A DNA stretch of 64,000 nt from Stylophora pistillata. Its lineage: Eukaryota. The position numbers and the translations under genes are program-made. Where the stretch lies: assembly GCF_002571385.2 (NCBI RefSeq), contig NW_019217946.1:357427-421426 (forward strand). Reading direction: 5' to 3'. A model generated the notes under the pieces. That model ran no database searches, was not told the DNA's origin, and worked only from the letters and a program-made list of their open reading frames with translations. Position 1 is the stretch's first letter. Each line of letters starts with the position of its first letter. Positions 12,933 to 61,281 of the stretch are shown here, piece by piece.

Positions 12933-15107
12933 GTTTAATGCAACGATTATGCTACTGGTTTTTCTAGACGCATCGATTTCCTTTATTGGTGAGTTGATGA
13001 GTAGGCGAAAAAAAATTCAGTTTGAAAGTAGAAAGGTTACCATTGAGATCATCTTCAAATCCAATTTTGCTCGTGTTCGAACAGTTTCTTGACCAAAAAT
13101 TTCCAGAGGCACATAGGTTGTTTCATAAAGATAAAAAAGGTGAAGTATTTCAGCTCCCTTTATTCCTGGCTTGTTTAGTGTAAATTTGATTGTAAATGAA
13201 ATGGAGCCTGACCGTGGATGACCAGTTGGTATCACTTTATTGCGTCTTAGTGGACATCTATGTCTCCTCCATGGAATGAAAAAAATTCTCAGCCAAGATC
13301 CAGCCCTCTCGAATAAAAATGTTGGTCTTATCTCGCTATTTTGCTTGTCGTCAAGATATAAGCTAACAATAACACAACTTCATCAGGAAATACTTCTCAT
13401 TAAATCAAGTATTCTGTTCTTTGTCACTCTCCTTTTGCATTGTCTCCATTACTCTTCACCCATTTCCGCCCCTTGTAATCGTTATTCAAAGCCAAAGCAC
13501 AGCCCTTTAATCAAGGCAAATACTTGGTGAATGGAATAATGGATGTTCTACCTAATGGTAACTTGAAACTTCGCCTGGATGCAAGAAAGGAAAGCAGCGG
13601 AGCTGGTGAACAACCCCTAAACCCCACAACTGTGTTACCTACAAGTGGCTACACGACTGAACCTCCCACTGGGGGAGCTACCAGCACGGGAACAGCACCA
13701 ACCCCCGGGTCGACCATTGGATTCAGTACGACGCCTGGGTCCAGTATATCCCCCGGAATAAGAAATCCAGGTACGACGGCTCTTCAAAGGCGTAAAAATA
13801 TTTTGCTGATAAAATTATAGTGTCAGTATCTACAATTGATAGTAATAGGACTGAAAATAAGTTATTGTCAGAAATATTGTCAGATTTTCTTGTTTTCACG
13901 TCCTCACATTCTAAGAATAACATTCAAACAAGAAAGGTCCTCTCTTACACTCGAGTAATGCTTGAAAAATTATATATTGAATATCGCAGATGATCATTTT
14001 AGGGACGGTCATCGTCTCCATGTTTGAAAGAATTATATAACACTCTTTAAGTTTCCCGAAAGCAGCAAACGTCGATAAATGGCGATCAGCCACCAAATTA
14101 GGCAGAGGGAGAGCTACAAAAATATGGTCCTTGCCATACGAAATTAAAGACAGTACAAGTTTTCATCTACAGGCGGCAATCCAAGACGGGTTGCACTAAA
14201 CTTGCACAACGACCACCGTCGAGTACACAATGCTCCAAGAATGAGGCTCACTTCCCAACTAAACGATGATGCTCAGAGGTATGCAGACAAACTTGCCCGT
14301 GAAAGTTTGTTTGTTCATGACCAACAAAATAGAAGGCAAGGAGAAAATCTGAGATTGCAATGCGCCCCTGGAAGTGATGTAGATCTGGTTAAGAAGGCTG
14401 TTGATGCATGGTAAGCCTCACCAAAGGCAATGCAAATTTAGTAAAATGTAATTTGGAGTCGACTTTTAGTGATCTGGAGTAAAGCTTAGAGCAAATCCCT
14501 AGTGAGTGCCGAATGTATTCTGGGATTGAATTGGTTTTGCTTATGTTTGCCTAATCATTTTTTCTAAAAACCTCACTAAAGCCAACTAGGAAATAGTCGC
14601 TGAGCATTACGTGAAGTACCAGTAAATACTGACCAAGAAAACATGCATTGAATTTTCTGCCGATCTATTACTGTTGTTGTTTTGATGTTGTCTATAAATA
14701 GATAAATAAATGCCATTGCAGTGCCATTAGAATAGCTTCCATCCGCTCTCTCATTTTTCAGGTATAACGAGGTTTGTACGTACAATTTCGACAATCCTAG
14801 AGCAAGTTCTGGCGTCACCGGTCACTTTACTCAGGTCGTGTGGAAAAAGAGCACCAGGCTTGGCATTGGGCTCGCCAGAGGAAGCTACGCATTTGGTTCA
14901 CACTTATTTGACAACTGCCTGTTTGTAGTCGGTCGGTATCTAAAACCAGGAAACGTATTTGGTGCCTATCAACAGAATGTTTTGAGGGGCAGCTTTAACA
15001 GGCAGATGTGTCGTTCTTCAAACACTTCCGGAAAGAGAAATAAGCTGTTCCGAAAACTAAATTCGGGAGAAAGTAAAAGAAAGAGCACCTTAGAGATGGT
15101 TCTATAA
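12933..15107 (+). CDS. CAP-1: secreted CAP/SCP (GAPR-1-like) protein with N-terminal hairpin motif and T/P/G linker
   Basis: Exons 12933-12988, 13492-13770, 14173-14410 and 14762-15107 join in frame with GT-AG sites. Signal-like FNATIMLLVFLDASISFIAKA. CAP motifs LHNDHRRVH, GENL, WYNEVC, GHFTQVVWK and VVGRYLKPGN. Confidence 0.85.
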
Positions 15108-16364
15108 CTAAGGGAAAACCATATTATATGATGCACTTTAGGAAGGATGGAATAAAGTCATCTGTGGCAAATAGATAATGGCTATGCTTACCTTGGTTTG
15201 ATTTTATTAACTAGCAATCAAAGAAGAGTTCATAGAAACAGTTGGTCGGTTAATATTATTGGATTCACAACATAGGGAAATATGGCCGCGCATGAAAGAG
15301 AATTTATCTCATGGCTCTTTCGAGGAAATCGAGATAAAACTGAAGAATAAGCAAAAGTTTTGGAATATCTACATAAGGTGACATAAAATTCAACCACAGT
15401 TTATAAGTAAAACAAAATAATGTGGAAGGACACGGCCATGAACACCTTTCAGTGTTCAATACTTAATCGCCTTGAACTTAATTACTAAGAACTGTGATAT
15501 CAACGGAATCACTTTCACAAATTTACTGTAAACCAACATAGTGCATTGGATAAGAACGGAGAATCCTGATTAAAATCGCTTGACCAATCAAAGTGAAACC
15601 AATGGAAGATGGGACTTTGTACCCTGATGAGTTGGGTAAGAAGATAAGACTGACTACAATGATTTCCGCTTCATTTAAGCCAGGGTGGAAAACGTAAGAT
15701 AATCGTAAGCTTACGTGCATACAAAAAGAAATAAAGAGTTCATTATCCTGCTCTGTGTATGTTAAAGATCCGGAACTATGCATCATCATGAAATTCTTCA
15801 CATCATATTACCGAGGTTATTGTCCTCTACATCGATATGAAATGGGAAGGCTTATGTCATCTAAATACAGGTGGGTAGTTTCAATTCTTTAGCTATGGGA
15901 GGATTACGACTGACAGGAGGCCAAAAAAGCTCCACTCTCAACTTCGTATTTCTACTCCTTTAAAACCTAGAAAATGTAAGAAACGTTTGAAAAACTAGCA
16001 AACCTATCTTTTGAACAAAATGATTTGGTGATGTAACTCCATGATTGACGCCATCAATTTTCCATTGAAGAGTATAGATCTACGTGTATCTACTGACTGT
16101 GCGTCGCAGCTTGATTTTCAAAAGTTATAAACCCTCGATTTTTGAACTTTTTGGGAGAGAAATATTGTTTTTATTCCTTGCCTCTTCCTTTCAATTTGAA
16201 AACCTATTTTTTTTCTGCTATTTTTATTCATCAGGAATCTAAAGAATTTATTTTGGTTAAATTATCATGGCCTTGTCGTTTGGTTAGGTTTGTTTTCACT
16301 GAGAGGTAAGATCTTTTGCTCGTTGGAAACAATCATTTATCATACAACTAAGAGACTTTCAGAC

Positions 16365-18480
16365 ATGATTGTCATGGGCGTTTTTATATTCTTATATTTG
16401 TGTTCCACAGTAAGTGCAGGCTCGTTGCGAATTCCTGTAGAGGGACAGCTCATATACGACAGTTCATCAAAGATGGTAGATCTCTGTCTGTCGGCGCACA
16501 TGTGTCCACCGTGTGTTTTTGACACTCTTTGTAACCAGGGCGGAATTTATCCCATGCAAGGAACAAATGCTCTACCTTACTCCAGCAACGCTTCGCCGTT
16601 AACCTCTGTTTCAACGACCCCAACATCACCGTTAACCTCTGTGTCATCGACCCCAACATCTTCGAGTTCGGAGCTAGCCTCGACAGAGTCTCCTTCAACC
16701 ACCGAAGCTACCACGCAGATTATTTCCACGACGGAGGAACCGGCTAGTAGTACAACAGCATCAACCCCTTCCAGCAGCAGCATCACTGATCACACCCCTT
16801 CATCGGTGTCTGAGACAACTTCAATCACAGAGGCTACAGAAACAACCGAAAGTGGTAATCTAAGTCCTACAACATCGGTCACGGCCTCAGCAACAACGGT
16901 CGGTGGGGGAATTGACGCAGAGACAGGTAATTACATGGTTTTTATCGGACAAAAATCTGATATAGGGAACTAAGTATGAGAAAATAATCGGGACCTACTG
17001 GTCTCCCTGACAATTGAAACGATCCACTTTCCCATTTTTTTCTGCACTGGTCTGAAAGAGGGCTGAGATACAGGTTCGAGTTATAACCGCCGCCCAGTTA
17101 GCTCAATGGATAGAGCGCTGGACTGTTGTGCGGGAGGTCAAGGGTTCGAGTCCCGGCCGGACCAACACTCAAGGTCTTAAAATAATTGAGAAGAATTTGC
17201 TACCTTTCTATAACATCAAGAAATGGTCAGATATTCTAGTCTTCTCGGATAGGGACGAATAAATGGAGGTCCCGTCTCCTGCAGGGCTGGGGGAAGGAGA
17301 CGTTAATTTCCCACACACGAGATTACTGTGTGATGGATGTCCTCCCCTTGGGTGGGATGGTTGGGTTTACTTGACCCGCAGTAATTGGCGCAAGCTGTTG
17401 CGGTGTCCCCTGGCGAATCAAATAAATTAAAATTAAATTAAATATGTACAACTACGTATTGTAGTGCTTTCTGTTTCGGGGGGAGGCTCAATGTCCAATT
17501 CATTCGTTATCAACGGGTATACCAAAATACCAGCGTTCAATCGTTTTGCAGTGTCTTACATAGCCCGATTCGTCCTTTTCAACCTTTAAAGTGCGAAGTT
17601 TCTATAGCTTACATCAGTTCCTTTTTGCTTTATTAACATATAGATGTTCACCAAAAGGGATTGGATAAGCACAACTATTATCGCAAAATACACAACTCAC
17701 CTGCACTAAGTCTGAGCTCACAGTTGAACAGTGATGCCCAAAAGACTGCTGAAAGAATTGCAGCTCAGGGTAAACTTGTCCACACTGACGACTCGGAGTT
17801 GGGTGAAAAAGGAGAGAATCTTGGAAAGTTGTGCGTAACGGACGAAACTCTAGAAGAGGTTATAGTTAAAGTTGTTGAGAGATGGTGAGTAGATTATGGG
17901 GCTGGTAAAATCCTATGAAGTTCTCAAAAAAAAAAACAAATTAATGCTGCAAAAATGCAGGAAAAGCAGGAAAACTTTGGTTTTACATCACTGTGCTATG
18001 CAATTGGCCTAGAGAAGCAAAACAATATATTGTGTAGTTTTATAATTTTTTTTATCAATATTTAGGCAGAAAATTAATTTCTGGTTAATTCTGGAACAAC
18101 AAGGTCTGAAAACTAATGCAAAAACATTTTTTTTACTTTCTTTTTCGTTGTACTGAAGGTATAATGAGGTTTGTAAGTACGATTTTAGCAAGCCAGAAGG
18201 GTCACAGTCAACTGGACATTTTACACAGCTCGTTTGGGCCTCGACTAGAGAACTCGGTCTCGGATGGGCTAAAAAAGATGAAGGTGACTTCCCTTGTTAC
18301 TATGTAGCGGGAAGATACAGCCCCGGTGGAAATATTGACAACAGATTTGAAGAAAACGTCATGAAAGGAAGTTTCGACTCCTCATACTGTTCATCAAAAA
18401 GGCGAACTCTTAAACGTTTGAGAGACCCGGTCTGGCCAAAATGGTATAATGTTATCGTAAGAAGTCTCCACCATTACTAA
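16365..18480 (+). CDS. CAP-2: secreted CAP protein with Cys-rich mini-module and S/T/E mucin-like linker
   Basis: Exons 16365-16926, 17644-17884 and 18159-18480. Signal MIVMGVFIFLYLCSTVSA. CAP motifs HNYYRKIH, GENLG, WYNEVC, GHFTQLVW and VAGRYSPGGN. Confidence 0.88.
17086..17420 (+). mobile_element. tRNA-derived SINE in a CAP-2 intron
   Basis: Same family as 4193. B box GGTTCGAGTCC and an A-rich (TTAAA)n tail. Confidence 0.8.
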
Positions 18481-19210
18481 TTTAGTCATACTTTAAAAAC
18501 TCGTTTTATTCCAGTTTGAGATGCTTCGGTATCCCTTCTTACAATTGTCATGATAAGGGAAAAAGGAGCGAGGTACAACTCTATAATTTTACACAATCAT
18601 TCATGTCGACATTACATATCACAAGCCAGACCAAGTATGGACCCTTGTGGGACGCCAGACTTTATTTGCTCAGAAGCAGACTGTGCGCTGCCATAGACAA
18701 CAGATTGACATCGATTTATAAGATAGTTCTCAAACCACTTCAGTTCTTGGTTTTGGATGTCAAACCCAGGCAATTTCTTTATGAGAAGTTGGTGATTCAT
18801 CGGTCGAAGGCTTTTCGAAAGTCGACAAACACCGCTGCCGTAACGCGACCATCGTCTATACCTTTCCTAATACAATCCGTGAAATATGTTACCGCGTCCT
18901 GGGTAGAGTGATTTTTCCGAAACCCGCACTGGAAGGGAGATAGCTGGTTGGACTTTTCTAAATGATGGAGTAGCTGAATTTCCACGGCTCTTTTAAGGAT
19001 CTTCGAAGCCACCGGTAAAACGGAGATGGGACGGCAGTTATCCATACACGTATTATCCCCATCTTTATATAGGGTCACCACCCTTGCATATTTCCATTCC
19101 TCCGGTACAACTGCAGAGGAAATCGAGAGATTTATTATGGCTGTTAGAGGAGCTGAAATGCTTGAAGCCGCATCCTTTATTAGACGGGCTGGAATTCCGT
19201 CAAGTCCTCT

Positions 19211-24871: not shown

Positions 24872-25451
24872 ATGACCGGGCCTTTCATTTTCCTGACCAT
24901 GATTCAAGCAATATATGCCACGAATGGTAAGTGACAATTATGTTAGTTATCTTGGAAGGATCATTTTACCCACAGTTCCTACGGGAGGAAGGATAAGCTC
25001 TTGACAAAGTGTTGTCAAGGACTGAGCCCAATCATTTTTGCCGTAGTAACTTTGAATCACTTTCGACCAGCAATGATAATTATCATTATAAAAATATTAG
25101 GGCTACTTTTATTATTAACAGTAGTGCTGTTAGTGGATTAGTATTGTAAGCATCTTTTTTATCATTACCATCATTTCTTACATTATTATCATTATAATAG
25201 TCTTAATCAAAATCATTAGTTTCGCTATCATTATTATGATTGCCATTAATAGAACTATTATTGGAATGAAGATAACTGTTACGAAAGGTAAGCCTGTTGT
25301 GCTGTTAGACTCTTTCAAAACTTAGCGAACATTTTATTTCTACACCAACACTCGATCGGTTAGCAGCAAAAGAAAATAGTCAAAATATACGATCACATCA
25401 CAGGGCATTAGTGTTGAAGGACCCAAAACGTATTCTACGCAGATAAAGCTA

Positions 25452-25532
<81 letters not shown>

Positions 25533-27740
25533 CCCAGGCAAAGTGCACACGAACAAGTAGGTTTTTTAATGCATCGCAAGGAGCGAATAAACATCGTTCG
25601 TGCACATTGCCCATGGTATTATGTTTTTATTTCGCATGTCAATGACTGGAAGTGAACAATTATGACAGGAACGATAGTATGTATGAAATAAATTCCTAAT
25701 CCAAAAAGGCTGCTGATCCTATTGCTACTTGTTTTGTTGTTGTTGTTGTTGCTTTTTTTTTTTTTACTAGACATTACGGCTGTTTCCATTTGCTAGAAAC
25801 GAAGCCATGAAAATGCATCTATGAGTAGCATCAAAAAAACTTCAGTTGTAAGTGTGCGTACTTTTAAAATTCGTAGAATTTACAATCCAAGGAAATGGTT
25901 CATATGAAGCCGGGAAACTAAAAGTGGACCTTCACCTCGAGTCGACTATGAACATAACATCTGAAACAACTGTCCCCCCAACTTCTATCATGACAACGCT
26001 ACCTCCAACCACAAACGCGACAACTATTCCTCCGACGTCGTCGTCGAGAACATCTCCAGCTGCATCTGAAACAATTCCCCCTTCTACACTACCTCCAACA
26101 CCAGGTCCTACAGTAAATTCTACGACGCTTGGGCCCGAGACAGGGGCCTCATCGAGACCCACAAATATTACGTCAACTCCAACAACCTTACCGCCAACAG
26201 CTGCAAAGGGTGACAACATAACAAGTACCACAGGGCAACCGACAATAAGTGCGGCAGTGAATGTCACTACCCCAACACCTGCGCCAGAGTATAATGATGG
26301 AAAACCTTTAGCAAACTCCAAGCAGTGTAAGTAAAATATTCAACCCACATTAGATATCAATTTTAAAAGAGAACGACAAATTAAAAACCCCACCGCTTTT
26401 AGCCTAATTGTTACCTTCCAGTGTGTTCTCGTTAACGTTTTCATTCCTCATCAATAGATGAATCCTTTTTAAAATACTTGTGTTTCGGGCAGTAACAGCT
26501 GTAGTCACTGTGGTGCTACTAAGGTTAGATGCATAGAAGTTGCTATGGCATCGACAAAAGAGGTGGCAAAGGTAGCAATAGCTATCAGGGGTTTGCACTC
26601 AAAAGCAGCAGTGATGGGAGGGGGGGTATTGAAGAGAGTGGCAATGATAGCGGAGGTAGTAATAGTATTAGTGACAGAGGTGAGTAGCACATTAGTGACA
26701 GCTCAGCGGAAGTGACAGTGGAAGCAAAGGGCGACGTAGAGGCCGCACCGGAAGTGTGTACACAAGTCTGATATAAATGGGGTTGTGATAAGGACAATGA
26801 ATTTGAACGACTCCCTAACATAAGCTTGGATTTAGTTTCAGCTTTAGATCGTACAGCCCTCGAGCTGCACAATTACTATCGCTCGATTCACGAGGCGCCT
26901 CTCCTAACCCTTGATGAAAACCTCCGAAAAGATGCTCAAGATTATGCTCTTAAAGTTGCTAGGAGCCAAATGCTACGGCCAGAACAAGATTTTGTGCTCA
27001 ACTCTAAAAATGAAGGAGAAAACCTGGGATTTAGATGCTCGACAATACGACCTGATCCTGAGAAAGCCTTGAGACAGATAATGAAGCGGTGGTAGGAAAT
27101 TCTCAGAGTGCTAACTCTCTTTACTCTTATCTTCTCTTACTTTTTCTCGTCTATGATCCTAGCTTTCCTCTCATTTTCGATATTTTGCGACTCGGCAGTG
27201 TAAATTGAACTGTCACTAGTAGAATTATTTCTCTGGTTCCCCCTCTTTATTAATGATCAAATCCCTCATTAGAAACTTTGTAATGTTACCGTGACAACCA
27301 AAACTACTATTTGGGAAAATTCCTGATCTACAGAAAAAAAATGTGCGAATGCTTTTTTGGACATTTGTGGCATAGTACAGTGTCGAGTGTTTTGTTCATG
27401 AAGTAACACTCAAATTATTCATTCAATTTTTTTATAACTGATCTTCAGGTATGACGAAGGCTGCCAATACAACTTTCAAGCACCACCAACGGACAAGTAC
27501 TCGTTCAGACACTTCACACAAATGACATGGAATGGAAGCAGAAGGCTAGGCGTTGGCATCACCTATGGGAAAATTAACAATCTGCATTGCTTGTACTTTG
27601 TCGCACGTTACAGACCCCGTGGAAACCTGGGAAACAAGCTCATATATATCAATAATGTCAAGAAAGGAGTTTTCGATTCGTCTTTTTGCAGACCAATAGT
27701 AAATCAAGTGCCTAACCAAGAGGTCATTTTAAAAGAATAA
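24872..27740 (+). CDS. CAP-3: secreted CAP protein with T/P mucin-like linker
   Basis: Exons 24872-24926, 25877-26326, ~26842-27091 and 27449-27740. Signal-like MTGPFIFLTMIQAIYA. CAP motifs LHNYYRSIH, GENLGFRC, WYDEGC, HFTQMTW and VARYRPRGN. Confidence 0.85.
25460..25528. repeat. (GA)n microsatellite
   Basis: Directly visible. Confidence 0.95.
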
Positions 27741-29387: not shown

Positions 29388-31928
29388 ATGAAAGCTTTGC
29401 AACTGTCTGCCATATGCCTTTCCATTGTCATAAGCATTTACTGGAACTATGGTGAGTGATTGAACCTTGAAAACAAACTGTTTCTTATCAGGCGCTCTTC
29501 AGCAAAACCTCGACTATAAACCCCGAACAAAAACTCAACCTTTGGATGACGGTTGTTTACATTGTGCCCCTTACTCATTCTATTTGCCCCAATAAGAACA
29601 GGAGGTTAAAAGGGAGATATATACAGGAATTAAGTTGTTCAGCTAGTCTTTGCATTATGGACGCTTCCATGCTACACAAAATGGAACAACGACGAAAATG
29701 AAAAACTGGTATTAATATAGTGTAAGTTTATAAAATTCACATCATAAAGGCAGGAGGAAAACCACTGCGTCCTGTGGAGGATTGGCTCTCGGGAAAAGCG
29801 AGAACCATATTCAGTTGACAGCAGAGTGGTGTAGTTTGAATTGAAACAATTCATATTCGTAGTCGTAAGCTCGTTATATATTCCATCTTTTACTTTTAAG
29901 TCCAAACAGGAAAACGAGGCCCAGTGAAGGATACTAAAAAGGACCAGTTCATGATAACAGGAAAGGGAACAACTAAAGGGGGCAAGACGAAGATAATCGT
30001 TTACATGCAGACTACTGGTGAAAATCCAATCAATCCAGCACTAGGTAAGAAACAAGGGAAGAAAGCTTCTAATGTTACACCTGATCATTCTGGTAAACTG
30101 AAACTCCGAGTCCGTCACCTACCACAACAATACCACTGTCTGCTCAGGTCACAAGTGCATCACCAAAACCAAAGAAAGGGAAACACTTTTAAGTCACACC
30201 AAAACACCACCAACAGGTGGCAAGGCCTAGCCAAAATCGGAGATTTGCACCGGGTCGGAGTGTGAAAAACTCCAGCGCAAAAAAGTTGGTATCAAGCTCT
30301 TTAAATAATGCAGCGAGGGCTACTGTGGACTCTGCTAAAGCTACATCAACACCCTCTGCGATTATCAAGTCCTCGTCAATGACCAGTGCTGGTTTCCTTT
30401 CCTCTTCTAACTCTGCTAAATCCACCCCTGCGCCTCAGTCCAGCGGAGTGGTGCCGGTAAAAAGCAAACAAGCCGCTACCAGTGGCTCACCCGGACCTTC
30501 GCCGCAACCTTCAAGAAAGCAACCTACAACCAGTAGTTCGTCGGCATCTTCACCTCCACCCGATCAGTCTTCGAGTCAGGCTTCAGTGCAGCCTAGTGCT
30601 ACAAATAGTACAGCTATCCAATCTTCATCTGTATCAAGTTTAGCTCCTTCTTCATCTTCACCTCCAGCAGTAATCTCTTCAACTTCAGTTTCCCTTGACC
30701 CAAGTGCGACGAAAAATGCAGTTCCTCAAGTTTCATCTCTCGCTAGTGTTGATCCTTTCTTGACTCTGTCACTTGCGATTAAATCTCCTAGTGCAGGCGC
30801 ATCAAGCGCTGCGGTTACCCAAACTTCCTCTCTTCCAGGGTCCAGTGCTTCTTCCTCTCCTGGATCAACCATTACACCCGCAAAGTCTTCCCCAACAAAC
30901 CCCAACAACTACTCCTTACTTTACATTTAAGCGATAACTTTCCTCGTGATTATTCTCCTTTTATGGTCAGTCAGTTTATATATCTGCACCTATGTACGCT
31001 ATTTAAACACTTTTAAGTCTCGAACTGATCGTTTCCCCCAGTTTCCCGAGACGAACACATAGCTCTGGATGAGCACAACTTCTTCGAGGCTTGCATAAAT
31101 CAGCGCCACTCAGTCTTAACAAAGATATGGTATTTGAAGCACGCGAGTACGCCAAAAAAATTTCTGTCGCTGGAAATCTTTCACAAGGATGAATCGCCAG
31201 ATAAACTGAAACAAATGGGTGAAGGAGAAAATATTGGACTGGTGTGTTCTAAGGTTGAACTATCAGCTGCGCGAGTAGAGAGGAAAGTCGTAGATACCCG
31301 GTAAGGTTTTATACAAATAATCTTGCCTCACTGGGATTCTGTTGTTGTATTTCATCAAATATCATTGAATTTACATATACACATGGTGAGAGACAATAAC
31401 ATATGAAAAACTATTACGTTAATCTATGGACGCAATGCTCACTTACTCGGCATACGGTACACAAAAATGCTTTTCAGAGATCAGGATTAGTTCGCAACAA
31501 ATTCAAGAAGTTCAAATAATTTTTAAGTGTCTGCATGTGAGTACGTACAAAAGGGAAATTCATGTCTACCGGGAAAAAGCAACTCGATTTTAAATTCATT
31601 CCCTCTCTTATTCTACTTGTAGGCACAGAGAGGCGTGTAAATATAACCTCCAAGATCCTGACCCGATGTCCAAAAAAGCAGCTCATTTCACACAGCTTGT
31701 GTGAGGTGCTTCTAAACAACTCGGCGTTGGTGTTGCCGTGACAAAAAATGGGAAAAAGAATTGTGTATACGTTGTTGCTTGATACAAGCCTATGGAAGCT
31801 CGAAAGACCCAAAGAGCCTTAAAACTAATTTCAAAAAAGGATTATTTGATGCTTCCATTGACTGTGCTGCCAGCTCAAAGAAAAAGTTTTTCATTGCCGT
31901 GAAAGATCATTGCTTCTTATCAGCTTAG
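29388..31928 (+). pseudogene. CAP-4: unprocessed CAP pseudogene with Ser-rich linker
   Basis: Exons 29388-29451, 29901-~30920, 31042-31300 and 31623-~31928. Frameshifts in exons 2-4. The conserved intron-split Trp is changed to Arg. In-frame TGA in HFTQLV* and VVA*YKP. Confidence 0.85.
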
Positions 31929-32066
31929 TCGTTGAAGCTTATTTGTTACTGGGCGGGTAATGTTAAGAAAACGCCTCCGTGAAGAGCTACGAGTAGCAAG
32001 AAAAAACTTTAAAAGTCTTACTTTTGACTTTTTGTTGGTTATTGTAACAGGTCAAACAATAGTGAA

Positions 32067-35439: not shown

Positions 35440-38400
35440 ATGTGGACATTTATTTTGCACTGTGCTGTGGTTACGCTGGGTATCACAAATTCTGCTACAA
35501 CAGGTAAGCAGGATGACCTCTCGTTTGAAACTATTAAAGATCTAGATATACTTAAACAATGTTACTCGCAAGATGGTGCTATTCTCATATCACAACAAAG
35601 TATCCTCGCGAGTTTGAAAGAAAATTCGAAGAAGATAGAAGGAAATTACGAACCAGATTATTGGTTGAGGGATGAAGCAGTTTTCATTTTTTTTTTCCTA
35701 TAAATATAGGTTTTACTTTTATCTTGTCTCTTTTCAACCATTTCCTAACTCACGGTTAAAATATCTTTTTACCAAATGAAAGACGAATAGTTATAAGATT
35801 AAATGAATAATCTTACAATAAGCATTGAAAGTTTGAACAAGAAAACCGATTGATGAAATGGTTGATGATTCACCTAAAGATGCCTCTCACTAAAATAAAC
35901 TTTCGACGTTATTTCGCTTCGTTCACTTTCACCCGACATTCATGCACTACCCGTGCTGCATAATTATTAATCACCATGGCATTGTCTCATTCATCTCCTC
36001 AGCTACGGTCTCTCGATCATTTCTGACAGATTTTGACAAGATGGATAAATTTACCACGAAGTCGCAATCGAAAAAACAAAGAATGACAATACCGCATTTT
36101 CTACGAACGTTTAATGGCAATTCAGTTTCACTGAGTTCTGCTTTTATATTGCCTGTTAAGCACAGGATAATTTCACAGACGTCAAACGCTCCTAACAAAC
36201 AGCTGCATCATCCTCCAGCCAGGAATTCATTGCCCCTCTACAAAGTGAAGCAAGGAGTTAATGGCGGCTTGCAAAATGGATATATAGCTCAACACCCCCT
36301 TGTACACCAAAGAGGAAGAAACGATAATAATACCACTAATACCAATAAAGTATTTGAAATGGTGGGACCACCTCTTGCACTCAACACTCAGTTAAAAGGG
36401 TTGTTCCACTCACCGAAAGGTCGTGTTGTGGCAAGCGCAAGCAACTTCAGTGGAAAAGCAAATAAACACAGTCCTCTAACGAACTATAGCAACAAAGGAT
36501 TCATTCTCGCAAAGCAATTGAAGGACACATCAGCTTTAAGAGAGAAGACGCCTTTAGACGAAGAAATAATCGTAATGGGAGCGCCTTTAATATTCACTAA
36601 AGGAAACAAAAAATTTCTCACTATTTCAAAACATACCAAAGGAAAGACAAGCAACATTTTAAGGAACAGGGCTGCTCCCTTTCATCAGAAAGCTTATACT
36701 CCTCAAAAACTTCAAGGAGTGCATGAGAGCAAAACGTCTTTGAATATGTTGGCTTTGCATAACAAGACGACACTTCGAAACGACAAGGATGTTAGTTCAT
36801 CAATGAGTCCCAAAAATATCCAAAATCACATCCCTTCAAATGGGAATTTCCATAAACAAGAAAATAATAAAGTGGCAAATCTCTTGAAACAAAACCAAAG
36901 TAAAACGTCAAGTCAAAGTGAAAGTCAAAAGGAAACATTTGGGAATGAAACAGTGGTAATTACAGACAATTTTCTTCCTCATAACGTAAGTTTGAAGCAT
37001 CCTGATTCAACTTATTTTCACAAACAAACACCTAATAAAAGTGGAAATCAACTCCAGAGCATAGAACAGAAACAAACAGACGTTTTCTTTGAGACTGAAC
37101 TGGGTTCTAATGAAACTAGCAAAGCAGAAGGCCCTGGTAAAAATACTACTGGTTACCAAGAATACAACGCAAAAGAAAATCATGGCAGTGAAGAAACCAA
37201 CTCTATATTCACAACTATAATTGGTGACAGGCAAGAAAACCTTCCGCCATTTCCTGAAGAAAATTCTGAAGAAAAAAATGTCGAAGATTTGCAAATTTTC
37301 AGCGATGATAGTGGTAGCGTAAGCAAAGACCGAGATGAAGGAGAAAGGGATGGTCAGTTTCAAGGTAAACCGATGACTTCAGCTTCAAACCAGCGGTACA
37401 TGCCAGTGGATGACTTTGGGTCGCCTTTTTATGGCAATGAGACAGGTAAGCGTCTTCACAGTTGGACTAGTAATTTGGTAATTATATAGACCTCTAGTAT
37501 CTTGACAGGAGTACATCTGTGGATGTTATCGCAGATTGTTTAATTATAATTGCCTTTAAATCCCTTTTCGCAATATTTTGAAACTCTATAAATGATAGTT
37601 CCATGATAAAAATAATTCGCATCTCCAATACGAAACATAACTATTTTATGATTAAATTATATTTGCTTTGCGTTCAAAATTAATCACCATTGTAAGATGA
37701 AACTTCCGTTGAACTAAATTTCGCAGACGAGTATTTTAAGCGAGACGCCCTTGCAGCCCACAACAGGTATCGAGCTTTGCACAATGCTCCTCCTCTGCAA
37801 CTTAGCCGGGAGCTGTCCGCGGAGGCTGAAAAGTTTGCCAAACGACTGGCTAAAGTGGGTGTCGCATATCATGAAATAAACCGTAACCTTCGGAAGGAGG
37901 ATGAAGGTGATAATGTGGCAAGAGGGTGCAGTGAGTGGGGAGGGCTGACATCTACTGGAGCGATACATAGATGGTGAGAGCCTGCATTTCATTGTACATG
38001 CATAACTGTAAACAAGTAAACCGGCTGAAAAACCTTTTTTTGATTTCTTAAAGATTTCTTGATGGAATCTAAAAACATAATTTATCACCTGCTTAGAAGT
38101 TCAAGAGAACTTTTAACTTCTTTTGTTTTGTAATAGGTCGTGAAAATAATTTCATTTTCTCGGCCTTTTCAGATTAAATATTGACATTTTTCAAATGGAC
38201 GGCAGACTTTTAATTCAAACAAGAATCATCAATCGTACTTAAACGTTTTAAAAAATAACCAACCACAGGTATAGCCAAGTGTGTTATTTTAACTGGAGCA
38301 AGAACGCCATTCAACCCGAAGCGAAGAATTTCATGCAATTAATATGGAAAGGAACCAATCACATGGGAATAGGAAGAGCTTTTGGAACTCGCCGTGGCCT

Positions 38401-38938
38401 ACCTTGCACTTTCATCGTGGCACGTTACAGACCTGGTGTTATGAATGCATATGAAATGCACAGTAACGTAGACAGCGGCTCATTCCTGCCTTCATATTGC
38501 GATGCGGATAAGGACAAAGGTTTAATGTCCACAGGATATCCAAGTACATTTTTTCAGAAGGGAGTTGCACAACAATTCAATGAACCACCTCCTGACCCTC
38601 AGTCCTTTAGTAATTTCCAAAACAATGCAGACCCCTTAACAAGCGTAACGTTCTACCCTCTGGGTCCATGGGAGAAAACTATAGATTCGCAAGATGAGAG
38701 TGACTTTACGAGGGTACAACCCGATGAAAAGAAACTGTACAGTTTGTCACCTCGTGTCAATGTAGCAGACGCTACCCTCGACGACGATATGGACGACGAG
38801 GATAATGTCTCGATTACAGGCGATGATGATGACTGGAAGAGGACATATAAGTCACCTAAGGTTAAAGGTCACATAGTCGTGGATGCAAAGAAGTCTACAA
38901 TTAAGAAGACAGAAAAACGTCTTAAAAAAGCCGGCTGA
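35440..38938 (+). CDS. CAP-5: large secreted CAP protein with ~480-aa disordered N-region and Asp-rich C-tail
   Basis: Exons 35440-35503, 36003-37445, 37727-37973 and 38269-38938. Signal MWTFILHCAVVTLGITNSA. CAP motifs AHNRYRALH, GDNVARGC, WYSQVC, NFMQLIWK and IVARYRPG. Confidence 0.85.
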
Positions 38939-53690: not shown

Positions 53691-55336
53691 AAAAATTCTG
53701 CAATCAGCGTCAGTGGCACTTCATACTCCTCGATGACATTCACTCAACGGACTTAAATAGAGGAGGACTTCATCTTGGGGAGACAGGTATTGCCAAAATG
53801 TATAACAACTTCGCGAATAAATTACATGAATGTAGTTGACCTACTGGCCGTCTGTTCAATTCAGAGCGTAATCGCGACCTTGGAAATCCAATCGTTTCTC
53901 ACCAATTTGAATCATAACATGGAAAACAGCATAATACAGGTATAATCTTATCTTGTTGATAAATGTTTAACCAATTTCCAGCAGCAAACTATCAGTTTCA
54001 CGCCGAATCAAAGACGTTTTTTATGGCTTGAAAAACATTACGGAAACTGTTGATTATGAAAATTTTCTCAGATAAGCCTTGTTGTTAAACTCGAGAATAG
54101 ACAAATAGAATAATATCATGCCCATAAATTAAAGCCAGAACAAGTTTACAAATTTTTCATTGAAATAAAGAGAAATACTGAAATTGTAAAACTTACTGGG
54201 TTGCTTTCTTTGTTGACATCGACCCAGTACTAGTGATGAACTGTTAATGAGAAAGGCAAATGAATAAAGTTAAAATTTCCTCTAACAAATCGTTTATTTT
54301 TGCTTAGCTATCTCACAGACATCCTCTGTTAACAATAAACTGTCAAAATTGCCAACAATTTTCGCTCAAAGTAAGTTAAAATGGCTTTGTTTTGTTAAAC
54401 TTTACTCACGTTCTAGCCGCGACGGCAAAATGGCTTTCTTCACGTCACAGACAAGGCCGCGACGGCTGGAAACCTCACAACGACAGCAACCGGAAGTAAT
54501 TCTGGCAGTAACTTCATTTCCGCTTGCCGTCCCAGATGTCTGCCGTCGTAGGATCTTAAGCTCGTTATTATTTTACAGTGCTACCTAACAGGGTAAATAT
54601 CACCTACTACTGCTGGCAACAAACTACAACTGACTTCTGGTAAGAGATTTGAAGAACATCATCTTTTAAAGAAGAAAACCCAGCACTGTTGTGTCACTGT
54701 TAAGGTTAAGGTCAAATCAAGTTGTCAATGAGTAATTCTGATTACAAGGCGAAAACTGTCAGGATTTTTTTTAAGTGCTTAGAGATCGTTCGCATATTGA
54801 TTTATAAAATTCCCTTATAAGATTTAGTTAACCTGGTACACTATTAAAAAGGGTTTTTGATATTTCAATCGAGGATGAGGATATAGAGGCAAAAATAAAT
54901 TGGTTAGACTGGTCATGAGACTTGTTAAGTACGATCACTCCGCCGTCTAAAATCTCGCGCCCATCAGAATAGACTAAATGTACTTTTTAACATCCACATT
55001 GGTGAAACTGGCCTTGTTCCCAATCCGTAGAACGGTGAATATCCAAAGAAGTCGTCACACAGAGCAATTGATTTTACCTTTTAATTTCACGTTGGAATGA
55101 ACTACGAAGTCTCAAACGATCTTTTTCTTCCTTCGTCTCTTACGTGTCAAAAGTGCGCCCGCGAAACAACAAAGCGGTAAATTTGTCAAAATCACCGGGG
55201 CAACGAGTTAACCATTAAATGGCTAAATAATTACAATTTTTTTATTCTTAACAGGCTTTATCTTTATATCTAAAGACCTCCCTCGGTAGGTTCAAATTGA
55301 AAAATCATGTAAAGATTGCTCACTCACATCCCGGGT

Positions 55337-55915
55337 CCTTTTCGAAGTCTTTCCTATTTGCTTATCTTAATTTGCCTTTTGCATACAGGACAGCATTTAA
55401 AGAATGTTGCTTTGGTTTCTTCTATTTTCCATTGCTGCTGCCCAAGTAGGTAAAAACAGTTTCCTTTGTTGATCTATCTCAATTTAACATCACACTTCTT
55501 TTTCCTTTTGACTCATGAATTTTGCATTATCCTGCTGGTCAACGACGAGGAGTATGAAAGATGGACGATAAAAACAAATTCTTCATACTCACAGCGTCTT
55601 TCCACGGGGAACATTAATTTGGATCTAAATTTTTTATCGTGCTCGGGCTCGTTTTGAAACTGTTCTCACATAAAGCACGCTGTTTTCAACCAATCATAAT
55701 GATTAATTGATTATTGAACTGCCTTCATCTATTTATTTTGCGTGTCACTTAAGTTTGCATAAGAGACTGAACTGCCTTGCTTCCAGAACTTACCCCAGTT
55801 TCCGTGGTAGCATGTAGTGGCAAGGAGTATCGTAACTCCATAGTGTTAGACCATCCCGAAAATTAATCAGGTTTTACTGTCAAACGACTCATTTTATATC
55901 ATACCACTGTGTATT
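55337..55915 (+). repeat. Second copy of CAP-8 exon 1 and intron 1, with intact GT donor
   Basis: Near-identical to 50819-51362. Encodes MLLWFLLFSIAAAQV followed by GTAAAA. Confidence 0.8.
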
Positions 55916-57403
55916 NTGCTGTTTCTATTTTCTTCATTAAATGAAGAAATTTTCTGGTCGTCAAGCTGTTTTTCTTCCTTCGATTCATCTAATGAACTTG
56001 GATCTATATTTGCCAGCCATTCTGACTCTTCGTCGTCGGAAATATGATTCAAATTGTCCGCCATTTTTTTTTTTTTTTTCGTAACTACAATCCAATTCTT
56101 CGCTTGCGCGATGCGAGAAAACCTGTTTAACCTGTACTTTACAATAGACGAGTACAAATACCGCGTGATATTTGCACTCGTCTATGGTGTTATTTGTTCT
56201 CGTCTAGGTGTAATTGGATAATAAAGGTACTTATTGCAAATAGGGCAATGAGGAGGACTTGGTCAAATATTTCAAAGAGCTTCTTTTCCTTTCAGATCTT
56301 TAAATATAAATCTGAAAATGATACATTCCCCGCCTGCGTTGCCACCATCCAGGAATAAGGTGGCGTTCAATGCTGGGTTATGACAATTTCGCTAACGTCG
56401 CCTCATTTAACAAAGAATACAATTATTGAAAACTCTGAGCATTGCGTGATAGTGGCCTGTGCAAAGAAACAGGTCGCTCATACCACCGGGTATGGCTGGT
56501 GACCGGGTACCCACGATGCACTTACTTGTACCAGTAAAAAAAAGAAATAAATAACGCTATTCATTGGGTCAAGAAATGAAGCATCGCTGAAAGGCGGAGC
56601 CTTTCTCCGCCCCATTACCATCTTACCGTTGCCCAATCAACCAGTTTTCTTTTATTTCCCTACCAATTTACGAGCACAGTTTTGTCCAGGGTTGATCAAA
56701 GGATAAGAAGTGGTTCATTATAAAGGTGTTGATCCTAAATATCTGCCTTTGCAAATCATATAAATTTTTTTTTTTTTTTTTTTTTTTTTTGCTCTTTCCT
56801 TCTCTATTATTTTCAAGGTACAACGAAGTCTGTCGTCCGGGATACGACTTTTATATCCCCTCTTTTAGCGCTGGAATAGGCCATTTCACTCAAGTAGTGT
56901 GGAAAGAAAGCATAGTTCTTGGCATTGGAATAGCTTCAGGAAAGAAAAACGGCATGAACTGTGCATATATTGTGGCTATATATAGACCGGCTGGGAACAT
57001 GGTAGGAGAGTTTACCCAAAATGTGCCGGAAGGAGACTTTAATAAGGACAGCTATTGTGCAACAGTTAAGAGGCATACGCTCTTGGACAAGCAATGGAAG
57101 GCAGCTTTCGTTAACAATTCAAATGCCACAACGGGGTCGGCTGAGCTTCGCGGCCAATTTGAGGAACAATAAAGCAGCAAGAAAGAAAATATTGCCACAA
57201 AAAGACAAAAACAATCAGCGATTATTGTTATGCTATTTCGTTTTCATTGTTTCTCTTATACTTTGAAAACACATACAAATAAAAGCGTAAACAAACCATG
57301 GCAACCACTGCAAGACAAACCAGGACAAGACTTTGCTCGCCCGACATCTATTTTATCTTACACTTTACCAACAATGTATCGAGAAGCCCAGCTAAAACAG
57401 GAA

Positions 57404-59053
57404 TTAACCATGTTTGTGATGAGAAATATGACCTTTCTTTTTGCTGTTTAACAGCCCGAGGTCTTCGCCTCGTGGCTTCTTAAACCCAGTATGTTTAGCG
57501 TTCAAGCCATCCCTGGGCGGAGGAACTACAATGAGAAGAGGAAAGCAAACAGAAGCAATTAGCTCTCTTTAAGACTTACACTTTCCAGAGTTTATGGAAA
57601 CTTTGATTTTCCACCTTGGAATGCGAAATAAAGATTAAATGAATAGCCATTCAGTTATGCCATAAAACCAAACCAGTTTTTGTATTAGTAGTCATTTTAC
57701 ATCATTAGCACTAGTAATCGCGTAATTTCTCGTGCAATTTGGAATAGTGAAGCATCAGTATTTTTTCCAAAGGCTAGAAACATTGCACGAGCCATAAAGC
57801 GTGTTCAATTCACAGTCTAAAATATCAAGAAGTTTTTCCTGAGGCAATTACTACAATTAAGGAGAAATTCCCGGTGTCTCCGCCAATCAGCACTCTTGCT
57901 CTCTATGTTATAACTAGTGTAACACAAAATAACCAAAAAAATTTGACAAAGGCATCATTTCAGCAGATTTACAGCGCAAAAAAGCTAGCCTCGTGTTCGT
58001 AACCACCAGATGCAAATCGACTTGTTTATTAGCCTTATCGGATGCCAATTCATTACGTCGAGGCAAAGAAATCGAAACAACATACCTTTCCATCCAATTG
58101 GCTGTTGCTTCCCATCTCCCAGACTTTCAGTCCCCACCGTGCCTCCCATTGTGGGAGAGGTAGTTGGCTCTAGTGCGGCACCAGCTGCTCCCTCTGCAGG
58201 ATTACCAATCCGACATGTCAAGAGAACATGAGAAAAACGTTTGTGCTAGTTGGTTCTTTGTATTTATAGAGGATAAGTGAAAGCAAAAAGCCAAAATATA
58301 AAGTAAAACAGTTTACCAGTACCTCCTCCTAGACCTTCTGATCCCTCTGCGGGAAGAGCCCCTCCCTCCTGGCCACCTACTCCTTCTACTGGACCTTCTG
58401 GAGGAGCAGGTATACCTGCTCCAAATCCTCCTTCCGAGCCTCCTACTCCTCCTACTGGGCCACCTTCGCCTCCCACTGGGGCTCCTAGACCTCCTGCTGC
58501 GCCTCCCACTGGGGCTCCTATACCACCTGCTGCACCTCCTAGCCCTTCTGCTGGGCTAACTGCGCCTCCAACTGGGGGCGCTAATCCTCCTACTGGGCCA
58601 CCTACTCCTCCCACTGGGGCTCCTATACCTCCTGCTGCGCCTCCCACTGGGGCTCCTATACTACCTGCTGCACCTCCTAGCCCTCCTGCTGGGCTAACTG
58701 CGCCTCCAACTGGGGGTGCTAGTCCTCCTACTGGGCCTCCTAACCCTCCTACTGGACTGACTGCGCCTCCTCCGAGGCCACCTGCAAGGCTTCCTACACC
58801 TTTGCTGCTTTTACTCTTACCAGATAAGCCAATTGCCTTACTTGCTGTGCCAACCACCTTACCTGCTACCTTTCCTACCTTTGTTCCCTTCAAAGCTATG
58901 CTTCCAACTTTCGCTGCCAGGCCTAATAATCCATAAGGTTTCTGTTGGCTACCCACCTCTTCCGCCGGACCTCCTCCTGCGGGTCCTACCCCTCCTGCCA
59001 TCCCCTCATCGGGTCCTCCAGCTCCCGTTCCCATCCCACCGATTTGTCCTACC
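57404..59053 (-). CDS. Gly-rich elastin-like protein, copy A (5' end in gap)
   Basis: Exons 59053-58317, 58193-58086 and 57525-57404, nearly identical to copy B. Confidence 0.7.
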
Positions 59054-59726
59054 NNNNNNNNNNNNNNNNNNGATTGTAAAGCGTTTAGAGGCTTGCAATA
59101 ATTTATTATCATTTATTCAACGGATGGGTGAACTAATCTTGATCATTCATGATCCCTCGAAAGATCCTGTTTATTTCTACTATGTAAGTCCTAGCCAGAA
59201 TTAGATAGGGTCCACTGTTTTAAATTCGTCCTGAGCATCTCCTCTGCTAGGCTCTATCAATTTGGTTTAAGGTAACGTTCTGTATAAAACTATGAGTGCA
59301 TATTTCCATTGCCGTCCTTGAATAGATATAAACGAGCGTCAGGAATGGCTTTATGATCTTTCGCCAATCATTAGTCACATGATAGTCACGAGACCGGTCC
59401 TGGAGAATTGATCCCTCTGTGGTATTAAGAAATAAAAATGAGAGTAACTGTATAACACTTCTGGATAGTCCAGCTTGGCGCATGAATTCCCCCCACCCTC
59501 CCCCCTTCCTTCCACTGCCCTTTTAACCACCACCTCTGCAAGGTCAACACCACTTTATTACTTATTTGTTAGAACTTTCGTAACAGTTCGTTTTCTACAG
59601 TCTAGTTATATGAAGGAACTCTCCATCATATAAATTACATAGATAGGGAGCTACATCATAACGATCTTTTGATTCCAGCAAGCCAGCATGTCTTCACACC
59701 AGCATATCTTCACTTTATCTTTTTAG

Positions 59727-61281
59727 TGTTAGCCGAAGACGAACAACAAGGTTTAGCAGCTCTCAATGAATTTCGACAAGTACATGGGGTTCCTGCGATG
59801 ACACTGGACAGAGAAATGTGCGATGAAGCTGGTCAGTACGCCAGGCGGCTTACACGCATGGGTACTCTTAAGCATTCAAAGGATGAAGAAAGACATGGCC
59901 AGGGAGAAAATCTATCAATGGGATGTTCATCAGACGCTTCACCGCAAACCGCTGAGCAAGCCGTGAAAAGCTGGTGGGCTTTTTTTTACTTCTTTAATCA
60001 GGTTTTCGAGGTGTTGTCTCGAAGTTTTACCTCTTAATTAAATGCTCCAAATCAGATACAACGGATCGTGCATCATACGTAAAATGCTCCAAAGACAGAT
60101 GTCAATTATCAGGGTAACTGAAATCTCATTACAGGGACTCGTTATCACAACCTGGACTAATTCTTAAAAACTTCGTCTTAGAAATGCTCCGGCTCAGCGT
60201 TTTAGAAAAAATGATTTGCGACGGTACTAAACGAAGGACTCTATACCAAAGACTTGCTTAAAGCAGAGAACTTATTTTTAGAACCAGTTTGAAGTGAGAG
60301 GGGCCAAAAGTTTGGAGATTCGATCCCTTCATGTATAGGCATTTATTCCAAATAGGGCAATGAGGAGGACTTGGTCAACTATTTCAAAGAGCTTCTTTTC
60401 CTTTCAGATCTTTAAATATAAATCTGAAAATGATACAGTCCCCGCCTGCGTTGCCATCATCCACCAAGGTGGCGTTCAATGCCGGGTTATGACAGTTTCG
60501 CTAACGTCGCCTCATTTAATAAAGCACCCAGTTTTTGAAAACTCTGAGCATTGCGTAATAGTGGCCTGTGCAAAGAAACAGGTAGCTCATACCGACGGGT
60601 ATGGCTGGTGACCGGGTACCCACGATGCACTTACTTGTACCAGTAAAAAAAAATAAAAATAACGCTTTTCATTGGGTCAAGAAATGAAGCATGGCTGAGA
60701 GGCGGAGCCTTTCTCCGCCTCATTACCTTCTTACCGTTGCCCAATCAACCAGCTTCTTTTTTTCTTTTATTTCCCTACCAATTTACGAGCACAGTTTTGT
60801 CCAGGGCTGATCAAAGGATAACAAGTGGTTCATTATAAGGTTGTTGAGCCTAAATATTTGCCTTTGCAAATTATATAAATTACTTTTCCGTTTGTTTTTT
60901 TTCTTCCCTTCTCTAACATCTTCAAGGTACAACAAAGTCTGTCGTCCGGGATACGACTTTCATACCCTCTCTTTCAGCGCTGGAACAGGCCATTTCACTC
61001 AAGTAGTGTGGAAAAAAAGCATAGTCCTTGGTAATGGATTAGCTTCAGAAAAGTAAAACGGCATGAACTGTGCGTATATTGTGGCTAGATATAGACCGGC
61101 CGGGAACATGATGGGAGAGTTTACCCAAAATGTGCCGGAACGAATCTTTGATAGGGACAGCTATTGTGCAACAGTTAAGAGGCATACGCGCCTGGACAAG
61201 CAATGGAAGGCAGCTTTCGTTAACAATTCAAATGCCACAGCGGGTTCGGCTGAGCTTCGCGGCCAATTTGAGGAACAATGA
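59727..61281 (+). pseudogene. CAP-9: CAP paralog (exons 3-4 visible) with premature stop
   Basis: Exon 59727-59973 (ALNEFRQVH, GENLSMGC) and exon 60927-61281, with in-frame TAA at 61054-61056. The conserved YNE reads YNK. Confidence 0.8.

What the first reader, a model, noticed from the sequence alone, without database searches (positions are those of the whole stretch)
12933..61281. Tandem array of nine secreted GAPR-1-like CAP loci with fixed exon design and hypervariable linkers
Seen: intron phases (1, 1, then 2 inside the Trp codon) are conserved, and a candidate splice acceptor lies just upstream of the ATG in CAP-1 to CAP-8. The linker composition differs in each gene: T/P/G (CAP-1), S/T/E (CAP-2), T/P with several NxT sequons (CAP-3), Ser-rich (CAP-4), ~480 aa basic then acidic (CAP-5), K/P (CAP-6) and a short Gly-rich one (CAP-7/8). 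Known: GAPR-1 itself has no signal peptide, and CAP proteins act in venoms, defence, reproduction and lipid binding. Inference: an old diversified array with recent birth-and-death at its right end.
Basis: partly seen in the sequence, partly recalled or inferred. Interest (0 to 1): 0.7.

Follow-up and report, generated by a model that had tools for sequence, protein, structure and literature searches.

The report
Cnidarian secreted CAP array, new hairpin
A coral carries a row of 18 related genes, several broken, for likely secreted GAPR-1-type CAP proteins with a cysteine pattern shared with anemone stinging-capsule proteins, and most begin with an unnamed, predicted beta-hairpin that likely joins several copies together.

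Summary
The array is real and larger than reported: 18 same-strand CAP loci over about 130 kb of Stylophora pistillata contig C163. In the window CAP1, 2, 3, 5 and 6 are intact and spliced in RNA; CAP4, 8 and 9 are broken; CAP7 lacks its own last exon in this assembly. Intron phases and linker compositions hold. (1) Four cysteines plus a C-terminal extension, shared with Hydra, Nematostella and other corals and absent from the other Stylophora GAPR-1-type genes sampled. Peptides of the Nematostella nematocyst proteins NEP-16 and NEP-17 carry these cysteine motifs. (2) An unnamed 25-35-residue beta-hairpin behind the signal peptide, also in Acropora, Montipora, Orbicella and Nematostella. (3) A CAP-less Gly/Pro gene on the minus strand that keeps the signal exon and hairpin. 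A Stylophora-only clade is rejected, so the array is old. Part of the 'recent' right end may be an assembly artefact. Function and oligomerisation are inferred, not shown. New variant of a known family; moderate interest.

The parts
12949..15107 (+). CAP1, intact, 300 aa; exons 12949-12988, 13492-13770, 14173-14410, 14762-15107 (RefSeq XP_022791757.1 is a shorter model)
   Evidence: three joints in RNA; open frame
15974..18480 (+). CAP2, intact, 383 aa; start codon split by an intron (15975/16235); exons 16235-16305, 16411-16926, 17644-17884, 18159-18480
   Evidence: four joints in RNA, the first on 2 reads and one contig
24872..27740 (+). CAP3, intact, 350 aa; exons 24872-24926, 25877-26326, 26836-27091, 27449-27740; first tetrad His replaced
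   Evidence: three joints in 4 of 4 runs
29388..31930 (+). CAP4, pseudogene: frameshifts in exons 2 and 3, two stops in exon 4, Ser-rich linker
   Evidence: zero depth in 4 of 4 runs
35440..38938 (+). CAP5, intact, 807 aa, 480-aa linker exon, no hairpin found, degenerate tetrad (H,D,Q,N)
   Evidence: spliced contigs over exons 3-4 in X1 and X6; first intron outside the laid stretch
41322..44939 (+). CAP6, intact, 449 aa = PFX24968.1 / XP_022791747.1; has lost cysteines C1 and C3 together
49394..50550 (+). CAP7 exons 1-3; RefSeq XP_022791759.1 joins them to the exon at 56818; most reads laid here come from a diverged copy that skips exon 2
51507..57172 (+). CAP8, broken: frameshifted exon 2, deleted and stop-bearing exon 3, last exon 56818-57172
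   Evidence: near-zero depth over 51307-51973
52322..56222 (.). about 3.9 kb insertion in the last intron of CAP8 with a DDE_Tnp_4 (Harbinger-type) transposase remnant
59728..61281 (+). CAP9, exons 3-4 only, one stop in exon 4, begins behind an 18-N gap; may be a second haplotype of CAP8
61513..63259 (-). CAP-less gene: hairpin + Gly/Pro-rich exon 63259-62426, exon 62302-62195, last exon from 61634; its CAP7-like signal exon lies 2.4 kb beyond the window end; not tested in RNA
57404..59053 (-). second, gap-truncated copy of the CAP-less gene, 99.1-99.5% identical
13503..13592 (+). hairpin module of CAP1 (weak; rank 435 in leave-one-out)
16413..16505 (+). hairpin module of CAP2 (by eye only; not recovered in leave-one-out)
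25877..25956 (+). hairpin module of CAP3 (rank 1)
29930..30022 (+). hairpin module of CAP4 (rank 19)
42477..42572 (+). hairpin module of CAP6 (rank 1)
49794..49892 (+). hairpin module of CAP7 (rank 1; predicted two strands, pLDDT 77-85)
51508..51600 (+). hairpin module of CAP8 (rank 1)
63162..63257 (-). hairpin module of the CAP-less gene (rank 1; 56% identical to CAP8's)

Best explanation
This is an old tandem array of likely secreted proteins, each a GAPR-1-type CAP head predicted to be held by two cnidarian-type disulfides on a low-complexity, likely glycosylated stalk, with an N-terminal predicted beta-hairpin that likely links several chains, and they are likely made by stinging cells as capsule or discharge proteins. 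Shown: the array, the exon design, splicing of five window genes, the four cysteines and extension, the age, the conserved hairpin sequence. Predicted: CAP fold, hairpin fold, disordered linker. Inferred: secretion (hydrophobic first exon); C1-C3 and C2-C4 pairing (joint loss of C1 and C3 in CAP6 and its orthologue); self-association (a lone amphipathic two- or three-stranded sheet cannot bury its face alone, and it persists in a gene with no CAP head); nematocyte origin (NEP-16 and NEP-17 motifs). The heads would bind metal, lipid or peptide through the His/Glu tetrad, and copies with a degenerate tetrad would act as binding or spacer variants.
For: 18 loci, one strand, one intron design. RNA joints. 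Nearest solved relative is GAPR-1 by sequence (E 4.7e-16) and fold (E 9.4e-14, rmsd 2.1). C1 motif in 42 of 44 four-cysteine rows against 1 of 32 plain rows; C2, C4 invariant and C3 in 14 of 15. One clade is not rejected with the trait columns removed (p-AU 0.64). Hydra and Nematostella proteins carry the same domain, repeated up to 8 times in one chain, i.e. multivalency by another route. Hairpin: 7 of 14 segments rank first among about 6500 frames in leave-one-out; Orbicella and Acropora segments not in the profile score 13.8-16.5 bits against 2.9 for the next row; AlphaFold gives two strands in CAP7 and three in the longer type (pLDDT 86). NEP-16 and NEP-17 were released from Nematostella nematocysts, NEP-16 is expressed only in nematocytes (PMC3627010), and their single peptides carry the C1 and C3 motifs; the NEP-16 motif matches that of CAP9 and two flanking loci.
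Against: No cell-type or protein data for these genes were seen. The NEP link rests on one peptide each; the NEP models are about 15 kDa and the paper calls them short single-domain proteins with no sign of a structural role. 5 of 14 hairpin segments were not recovered in leave-one-out, a profile of window segments alone did not list the Nematostella segment, and CAP5 and two upstream loci have none. Some relatives are only signal peptide plus CAP (P0190, P0197), and the most abundant CAP7-like transcript skips the hairpin exon, so the module is dispensable. Clade support is modest (83/87, with one plain row inside). A GAPR-1-domain extracellular protein is reported from coral skeletal matrix (PMC7853314), so other sites are possible.
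Confidence: 0.5

Rival explanations
1. They are mucus or extracellular-matrix proteins of gland or epithelial cells, working like yeast Pry proteins: a glycosylated Ser/Thr stalk presents a lipid- or sterol-binding CAP head for defence or for managing microbes and symbionts.
For: Mucin-like linkers and sequons; RefSeq names them PRY1/2/3-like; CAP proteins bind sterols through an aromatic loop motif (PMC10189770); an extracellular GAPR-1-domain protein occurs in coral skeletal matrix (PMC7853314).
Against: The aromatic loop motif is present in only 5 of 15 array domains; the cysteine motifs match nematocyst peptides.
Confidence: 0.3
2. The hairpin is not an assembly module but folds back on its own CAP head or binds another protein or a sorting receptor; the proteins are monomers.
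For: The module is short, variable (two or three strands) and absent from several members.
Against: It is kept in a gene with no CAP domain and is separated from the head by about 25 to several hundred low-complexity residues; its sequence is conserved from corals to an anemone while the linker is not.
Confidence: 0.3
3. They are soluble venom toxins whose CAP head acts on prey.
For: PMC3627010 proposes this for NEP-16, -17 and -20 as untested; a GAPR-1-like protein co-purified in haemolytic fractions of Stylophora (PMC5762905; identity with these genes not checked).
Against: No CRISP channel-blocking domain; one-to-one orthologues are kept across robust and complex corals, unlike fast-turnover toxins; long glycosylated stalks are unusual for toxins (my knowledge).
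Confidence: 0.12
4. The right end (CAP8/CAP9 and the two minus-strand copies) is one locus assembled twice from two haplotypes, not a recent duplication.
For: 99.1-99.5% identity over 1.66 kb up to an 18-N gap; the sequence after the gap resumes at the CAP8 deletion point; abundant RNA comes from a CAP7-like copy that a genome search did not find.
Against: CAP8 and CAP9 differ by about 8% in exon and intron alike, high for alleles.
Confidence: 0.4

Closest known systems
Human GAPR-1/GLIPR2 (PDB 1SMB, 4AIW); group 2 SCP/TAPS proteins
   Same: Best sequence and fold match; compact CAP domain without the group 1 cysteines; His/Glu tetrad in 11 of 15 array domains.
   Different: Group 2 proteins are described as lacking signal peptides and disulfides and as intracellular (PMC3435950). 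These have a hydrophobic signal exon, four cysteines of their own, a C-terminal extension, a stalk and a hairpin.
Nematostella nematocyst CAP proteins NEP-16, NEP-17, NEP-20 (PMC3627010)
   Same: NEP-16 and NEP-17 peptides carry the C1 and C3 motifs; the paper notes close coral relatives.
Hydra multi-CAP proteins XP_065647709.1, XP_065676310.1; Nematostella XP_048577144.1, XP_032219189.2
   Same: Same four-cysteine domain and extension; XP_048577144.1 has signal peptide, hairpin, low-complexity linker and one CAP domain, the array's full design.
   Different: The Hydra proteins repeat the domain up to 8 times in one chain and show no hairpin; all are uncharacterised automatic annotations.
Yeast Pry1-3
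   Same: Secreted CAP with a Ser/Thr-rich region (architecture recalled; RefSeq names); fold match E 9e-13.
   Different: Other cysteine positions; sterol-loop motif in only 5 of 15; no hairpin known (recalled).
CRISP / venom allergen 5 (group 1 CAP)
   Same: Secreted, CAP fold.
   Different: No six-cysteine group 1 pattern, no hinge or channel-blocking domain; weaker matches than GAPR-1.

Membership tests
CAP superfamily (PF00188) | Pfam CAP match | tested here: met
   10 of 12 CAP exon frames hit at E<=0.01 as half-domains; P0001 carries PF00188
CAP superfamily (PF00188) | alpha-beta-alpha sandwich fold | tested here: met
   predicted model pLDDT >90 over most of the domain; Foldseek to GAPR-1 rmsd 2.1 over 148 columns
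CAP superfamily (PF00188) | two-His, two-Glu tetrad (PMC10189770) | tested here: met
   intact in 11 of 15 array domains; altered in CAP3, CAP5 and two upstream loci
GAPR-1 / group 2 SCP/TAPS | closest to GAPR-1, lacking the six group 1 cysteines | tested here: met
GAPR-1 / group 2 SCP/TAPS | no signal peptide, no disulfides, intracellular (PMC3435950) | tested here: not met
   hydrophobic first exon in 6 of 6 models (peak hydropathy 2.25-2.92); four conserved cysteines
Group 1 CAP (CRISP, antigen 5, PR-1) | signal peptide | tested here: met
   hydropathy and exon design only; SignalP not available
Group 1 CAP (CRISP, antigen 5, PR-1) | six cysteines forming three conserved disulfides (PMC3435950) | tested here: not met
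   four conserved cysteines
CRISP venom proteins | C-terminal cysteine-rich channel-blocking domain | tested here: not met
   no such Pfam hit on last exons; 2-8 cysteines per whole protein
Nematocyst CAP proteins NEP-16/17 | shared cysteine motifs | tested here: met
   one peptide each, compared by eye
Nematocyst CAP proteins NEP-16/17 | orthology by full-length sequence | not testable with these tools
   the NEP sequences could not be fetched by accession and were not among the named hits
Nematocyst CAP proteins NEP-16/17 | expression in nematocytes, release on discharge | not testable with these tools
   bulk RNA only; the single-cell atlas tables were not seen
Pry-type sterol exporters | aromatic caveolin-binding loop motif | tested here: inconclusive
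   pattern in 5 of 15 array domains
Pry-type sterol exporters | sterol or fatty-acid binding | not testable with these tools
   needs an assay
Any named family for the hairpin module | match in Pfam or to a solved fold | tested here: inconclusive
   0 of 19 segments under E 0.1 in Pfam; best Z 4.2 in 48161 chains; too short to exclude a family

The most novel reading that the evidence does not exclude
The N-terminal beta-hairpin is an undescribed assembly domain of corals and anemones that polymerises into barrels or fibres, so the array encodes a kit of interchangeable subunits (CAP heads on stalks of different length and charge, plus a headless Gly/Pro elastic subunit) for a stinging-capsule or thread material, and hexacorals get by assembly the multivalency that Hydra gets by repeating the same domain in one chain.
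Probability: 0.18. Interest if true: 0.72.

Novelty: new variant of a known kind. Interest (0 to 1): 0.44.

Why it matters
Group 2 (GAPR-1-type) CAP proteins are described as intracellular and disulfide-free. This lineage shows a second, cnidarian route to a secreted, cysteine-stabilised CAP protein, with sequence marks that separate it from the many plain GAPR-1 genes in the same genome. That gives venom and mucus proteomics a way to sort the 'GAPR-1-like' and 'PRY-like' labels, ties coral genes to nematocyst proteins whose role has been open since PMC3627010, and offers a small testable module conserved between corals and an anemone. Tandem arrays of secreted CAP genes as such are common, and the genes are already annotated, which keeps the score moderate.

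Tried and rejected
Complex prediction of four hairpin copies (CAP7 residues 28-64): no answer, score 0.17 against a mark of 0.32, alignment not used; it is no evidence either way. Atlas searches of two hairpins: none usable and one hit at 0.76, below what shuffled proteins often reach. Hairpin against Pfam, PDB sequences (best E 0.004, a hairpin in a viral attachment propeller, taken as a generic match), Foldseek (no E<=0.001) and VIA (best Z 4.2, gasdermin rows at Z 3.9-4.0 taken as common strand arrangements): nothing to build on. Word-based homologue searches were insensitive: 2 and 3 hits and none for the CAP-less gene, so its range is unknown. No hairpin was found in 40 other stretches of the genome around CAP hits (one 9.6-bit row at a locus edge dismissed). 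A 36-base exon in my first model of the CAP-less gene was an off-by-one error and is dropped; the four-exon model is read from the frames and was not re-run. Hydra and Nematostella multi-domain hits were first suspected to be fused models of the same array; their near-identical internal repeats point to single proteins, so they are no evidence of synteny. Synteny in other species was not tested. Term searches in PMC13581030, PMC12945647 and bioRxiv 10.1101/2025.10.06.680633 found nothing relevant. Earlier scan notes: none on this array.
Full report
What is there. The window is G000:C163:357427-421426 of a 398-Mb genome. A protein search returned the CAP6 product as PFX24968.1, Stylophora pistillata, on a contig of the same length. 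RefSeq names three window genes PRY3-like, PRY1-like and PRY2-like. So the genes are annotated. Nine CAP loci lie in the window on the + strand. A tblastn of 204 kb around it found eight more upstream and one downstream, 18 in all between about C163:303k and 436k. The last intron falls in the same codon in all 18 (Trp in 17).

Gene models and RNA. Six models (CAP1, 2, 3, 5, 6, 7) have GT..AG introns of phase 1, 1, 2 and no internal stop (two boundary slips were corrected there). CAP1 shows all three joints (7, 10 and 6 reads in X24, one contig in X1). CAP2 shows four joints; the first, on 2 reads and one contig, cuts the start codon itself, and the second places the ATG at 16365 in an intron. 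CAP3 shows three joints in 4 of 4 runs. CAP5 and CAP6 are covered by spliced contigs in X1 and X6. CAP4 has zero depth over 29125-31752 in 4 of 4 runs and carries frameshifts and stops. CAP8 is near zero and broken; CAP9 has only exons 3-4 and a stop. At CAP7, 165 and 411 reads skip exon 2 and 200 and 601 join exon 3 to the exon at 56818, but 227 of 235 and 645 of 657 reads differ from the assembly at 50433 and the match into the last exon is at most 34 bases. They come from a diverged copy that two DNA searches of the genome did not find. 125 further joints were not shown, so CAP7's own splicing is open.

Right end. The exon at 56818 pairs with CAP9's last exon and lies behind a 3.9-kb transposon-bearing insertion in CAP8's intron. 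CAP8 and CAP9 are 90-93% identical, but the next 1.66 kb is 99.1-99.5% identical and stops at an 18-N gap. Recent duplication and two haplotypes laid in tandem both fit.

The CAP domain. Its nearest solved relative is human GAPR-1 by sequence and by fold of a predicted CAP7 model. Unlike GAPR-1 it has four conserved cysteines: C1 after the GENL motif, C2 in YxEVC, C3 before the last strand, and C4 in a GxFxxxxC extension. In 40 other stretches of this genome around CAP hits only one other locus (C429, two domains) has this type. A profile of the last exon found the type in Hydra, Nematostella, Pocillopora, Montipora, Acropora and Orbicella; the three vertebrate hits I had named lack it. Only 20 of the 150 hits were looked up for names, so 'cnidarian' means all named carriers, not a census. 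In a 76-row tree the 44 four-cysteine rows fall on one branch with one plain row (83/87, bootstrap not settled). With cysteine and extension columns dropped and one half-domain row left out they fall on a branch of 47; one clade is not rejected (p-AU 0.64), while a Stylophora-only clade of 15 is (8e-34). The broken CAP4 and CAP9 and CAP8's exon 3 were left out. Single loci pair with Acropora and Orbicella (100/100) or Montipora proteins (99/96 group), so paralogues predate the split of robust and complex corals. The tetrad is intact in 11 of 15 and the aromatic sterol loop in 5 of 15.

The hairpin. Behind the signal peptide most genes have a 25-35-residue stretch of the form hydrophobic-x-G-x-G, turn, alternating hydrophobic strand. 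By eye it is in 13 of 18 loci; CAP5 and two long-linker upstream loci lack it, CAP9 lacks the exon, and none was found for the downstream locus. In leave-one-out against about 6500 frames, 7 of 14 segments ranked first, 2 within 25 and 5 were not recovered. A profile of window segments alone ranked the N-terminal segments of P0002, the Pocillopora family and Montipora above unrelated rows, P0124 within noise, and did not list the Nematostella one. The wider profile picked Orbicella and Acropora segments it had not seen, though it held their Stylophora orthologue. Nematostella XP_048577144.1 has the longer type at the same place, 29% identical to the C163:337.7k segment. AlphaFold predicts two strands in CAP7 with a disordered linker and a three-stranded meander for the longer type. 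A minus-strand gene at 61.5-63.3 kb keeps a CAP7-like signal exon and the hairpin, followed by Gly/Pro repeats and no CAP domain; it is untested in RNA. This makes the hairpin a separable module. Self-association is my inference from its exposed hydrophobic face and its independence.

Function. PMC3627010 (passages, section 13 and supplement 3 read) found CAP proteins NEP-16, -17 and -20 in Nematostella nematocyst discharge, showed NEP-16 only in nematocytes, and noted many CAP proteins in Hydra nematocysts. The NEP-16 peptide carries the C1 motif, present in 42 of 44 four-cysteine rows and 1 of 32 plain rows; the NEP-17 peptide carries the C3 motif; the NEP-20 peptide is uninformative. This is the best lead to a site of action, on one peptide each. 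Against a single answer: PMC7853314 (passages) reports an extracellular GAPR-1-domain protein in coral skeletal matrix, and PMC5762905 (passages) lists a GAPR-1-like protein in Stylophora haemolytic fractions. Definitions of the tetrad and sterol loop come from PMC10189770 (passages) and of groups 1 and 2 from PMC3435950 (passages). PMC8162421 and PMC7694928 were seen as search listings only; the atlas supplements, which may settle the cell type, were not seen.

Novelty. Nine literature searches showed no paper describing this array, the four-cysteine subfamily as such, or the hairpin; of six accessions only NEP-16's appeared in any main text. The library lacks most subscription journals and supplements, and the tree in PMC3627010 may already hold the clade without naming its marks. 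Verdict: a real, old, partly decayed array of a known superfamily, with a distinct cnidarian variant of the domain and an unnamed module. Interest 0.44.

Noticed in passing
window 15974-16235 (+): The CAP2 start codon is split by a 259-base intron (two bases in one exon, the third in the next), supported by 2 reads and one contig. CAP1 may do the same: its exon starts at 12933 on a third codon position and a matching donor lies at 12592, untested.
   Followed up: partly
window 48055-50550 and 56818-56850: The most abundant transcript laid in the array is a diverged CAP7-like copy that skips the hairpin exon and was not found in the assembly.
   Followed up: partly
window 36003-37445; G000:C163:303466-307218 and 310491-311858: The three long-linker loci without a hairpin share a short motif of the type V-x-G-[AS]-P-L in their linker exon; one linker frame is 1251 codons long.
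   Followed up: partly
L005:2710-2991 (G000:C163:320.1k-320.4k): In one upstream locus the hairpin appears to be split by an extra intron.
   Followed up: no
window 16411-16560 (+): CAP2 has four extra cysteines right behind its hairpin (8 in all), possible interchain links.
   Followed up: no
L023 (G000:C429:264000-273999, - strand): A second locus with two four-cysteine CAP domains and the same Trp-codon intron, close to Nematostella XP_032219189.2.
   Followed up: partly
window 4189-4471, 10560-10767, 17082-17366, 45963-46176: Copies of a tRNA-headed short repeat, heavily covered by reads from elsewhere in the genome.
   Followed up: no
window 758-1918, 8766-9683 (+); 18600-22640 (-); 32028-33652 (+): Reverse-transcriptase and endonuclease remnants of non-LTR retrotransposons between the genes.
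   Followed up: no
window 4403-5259 (+): A possible small secreted gene: signal-like stretch and a PAN-like cysteine-bearing frame, no Pfam hit.
   Followed up: no
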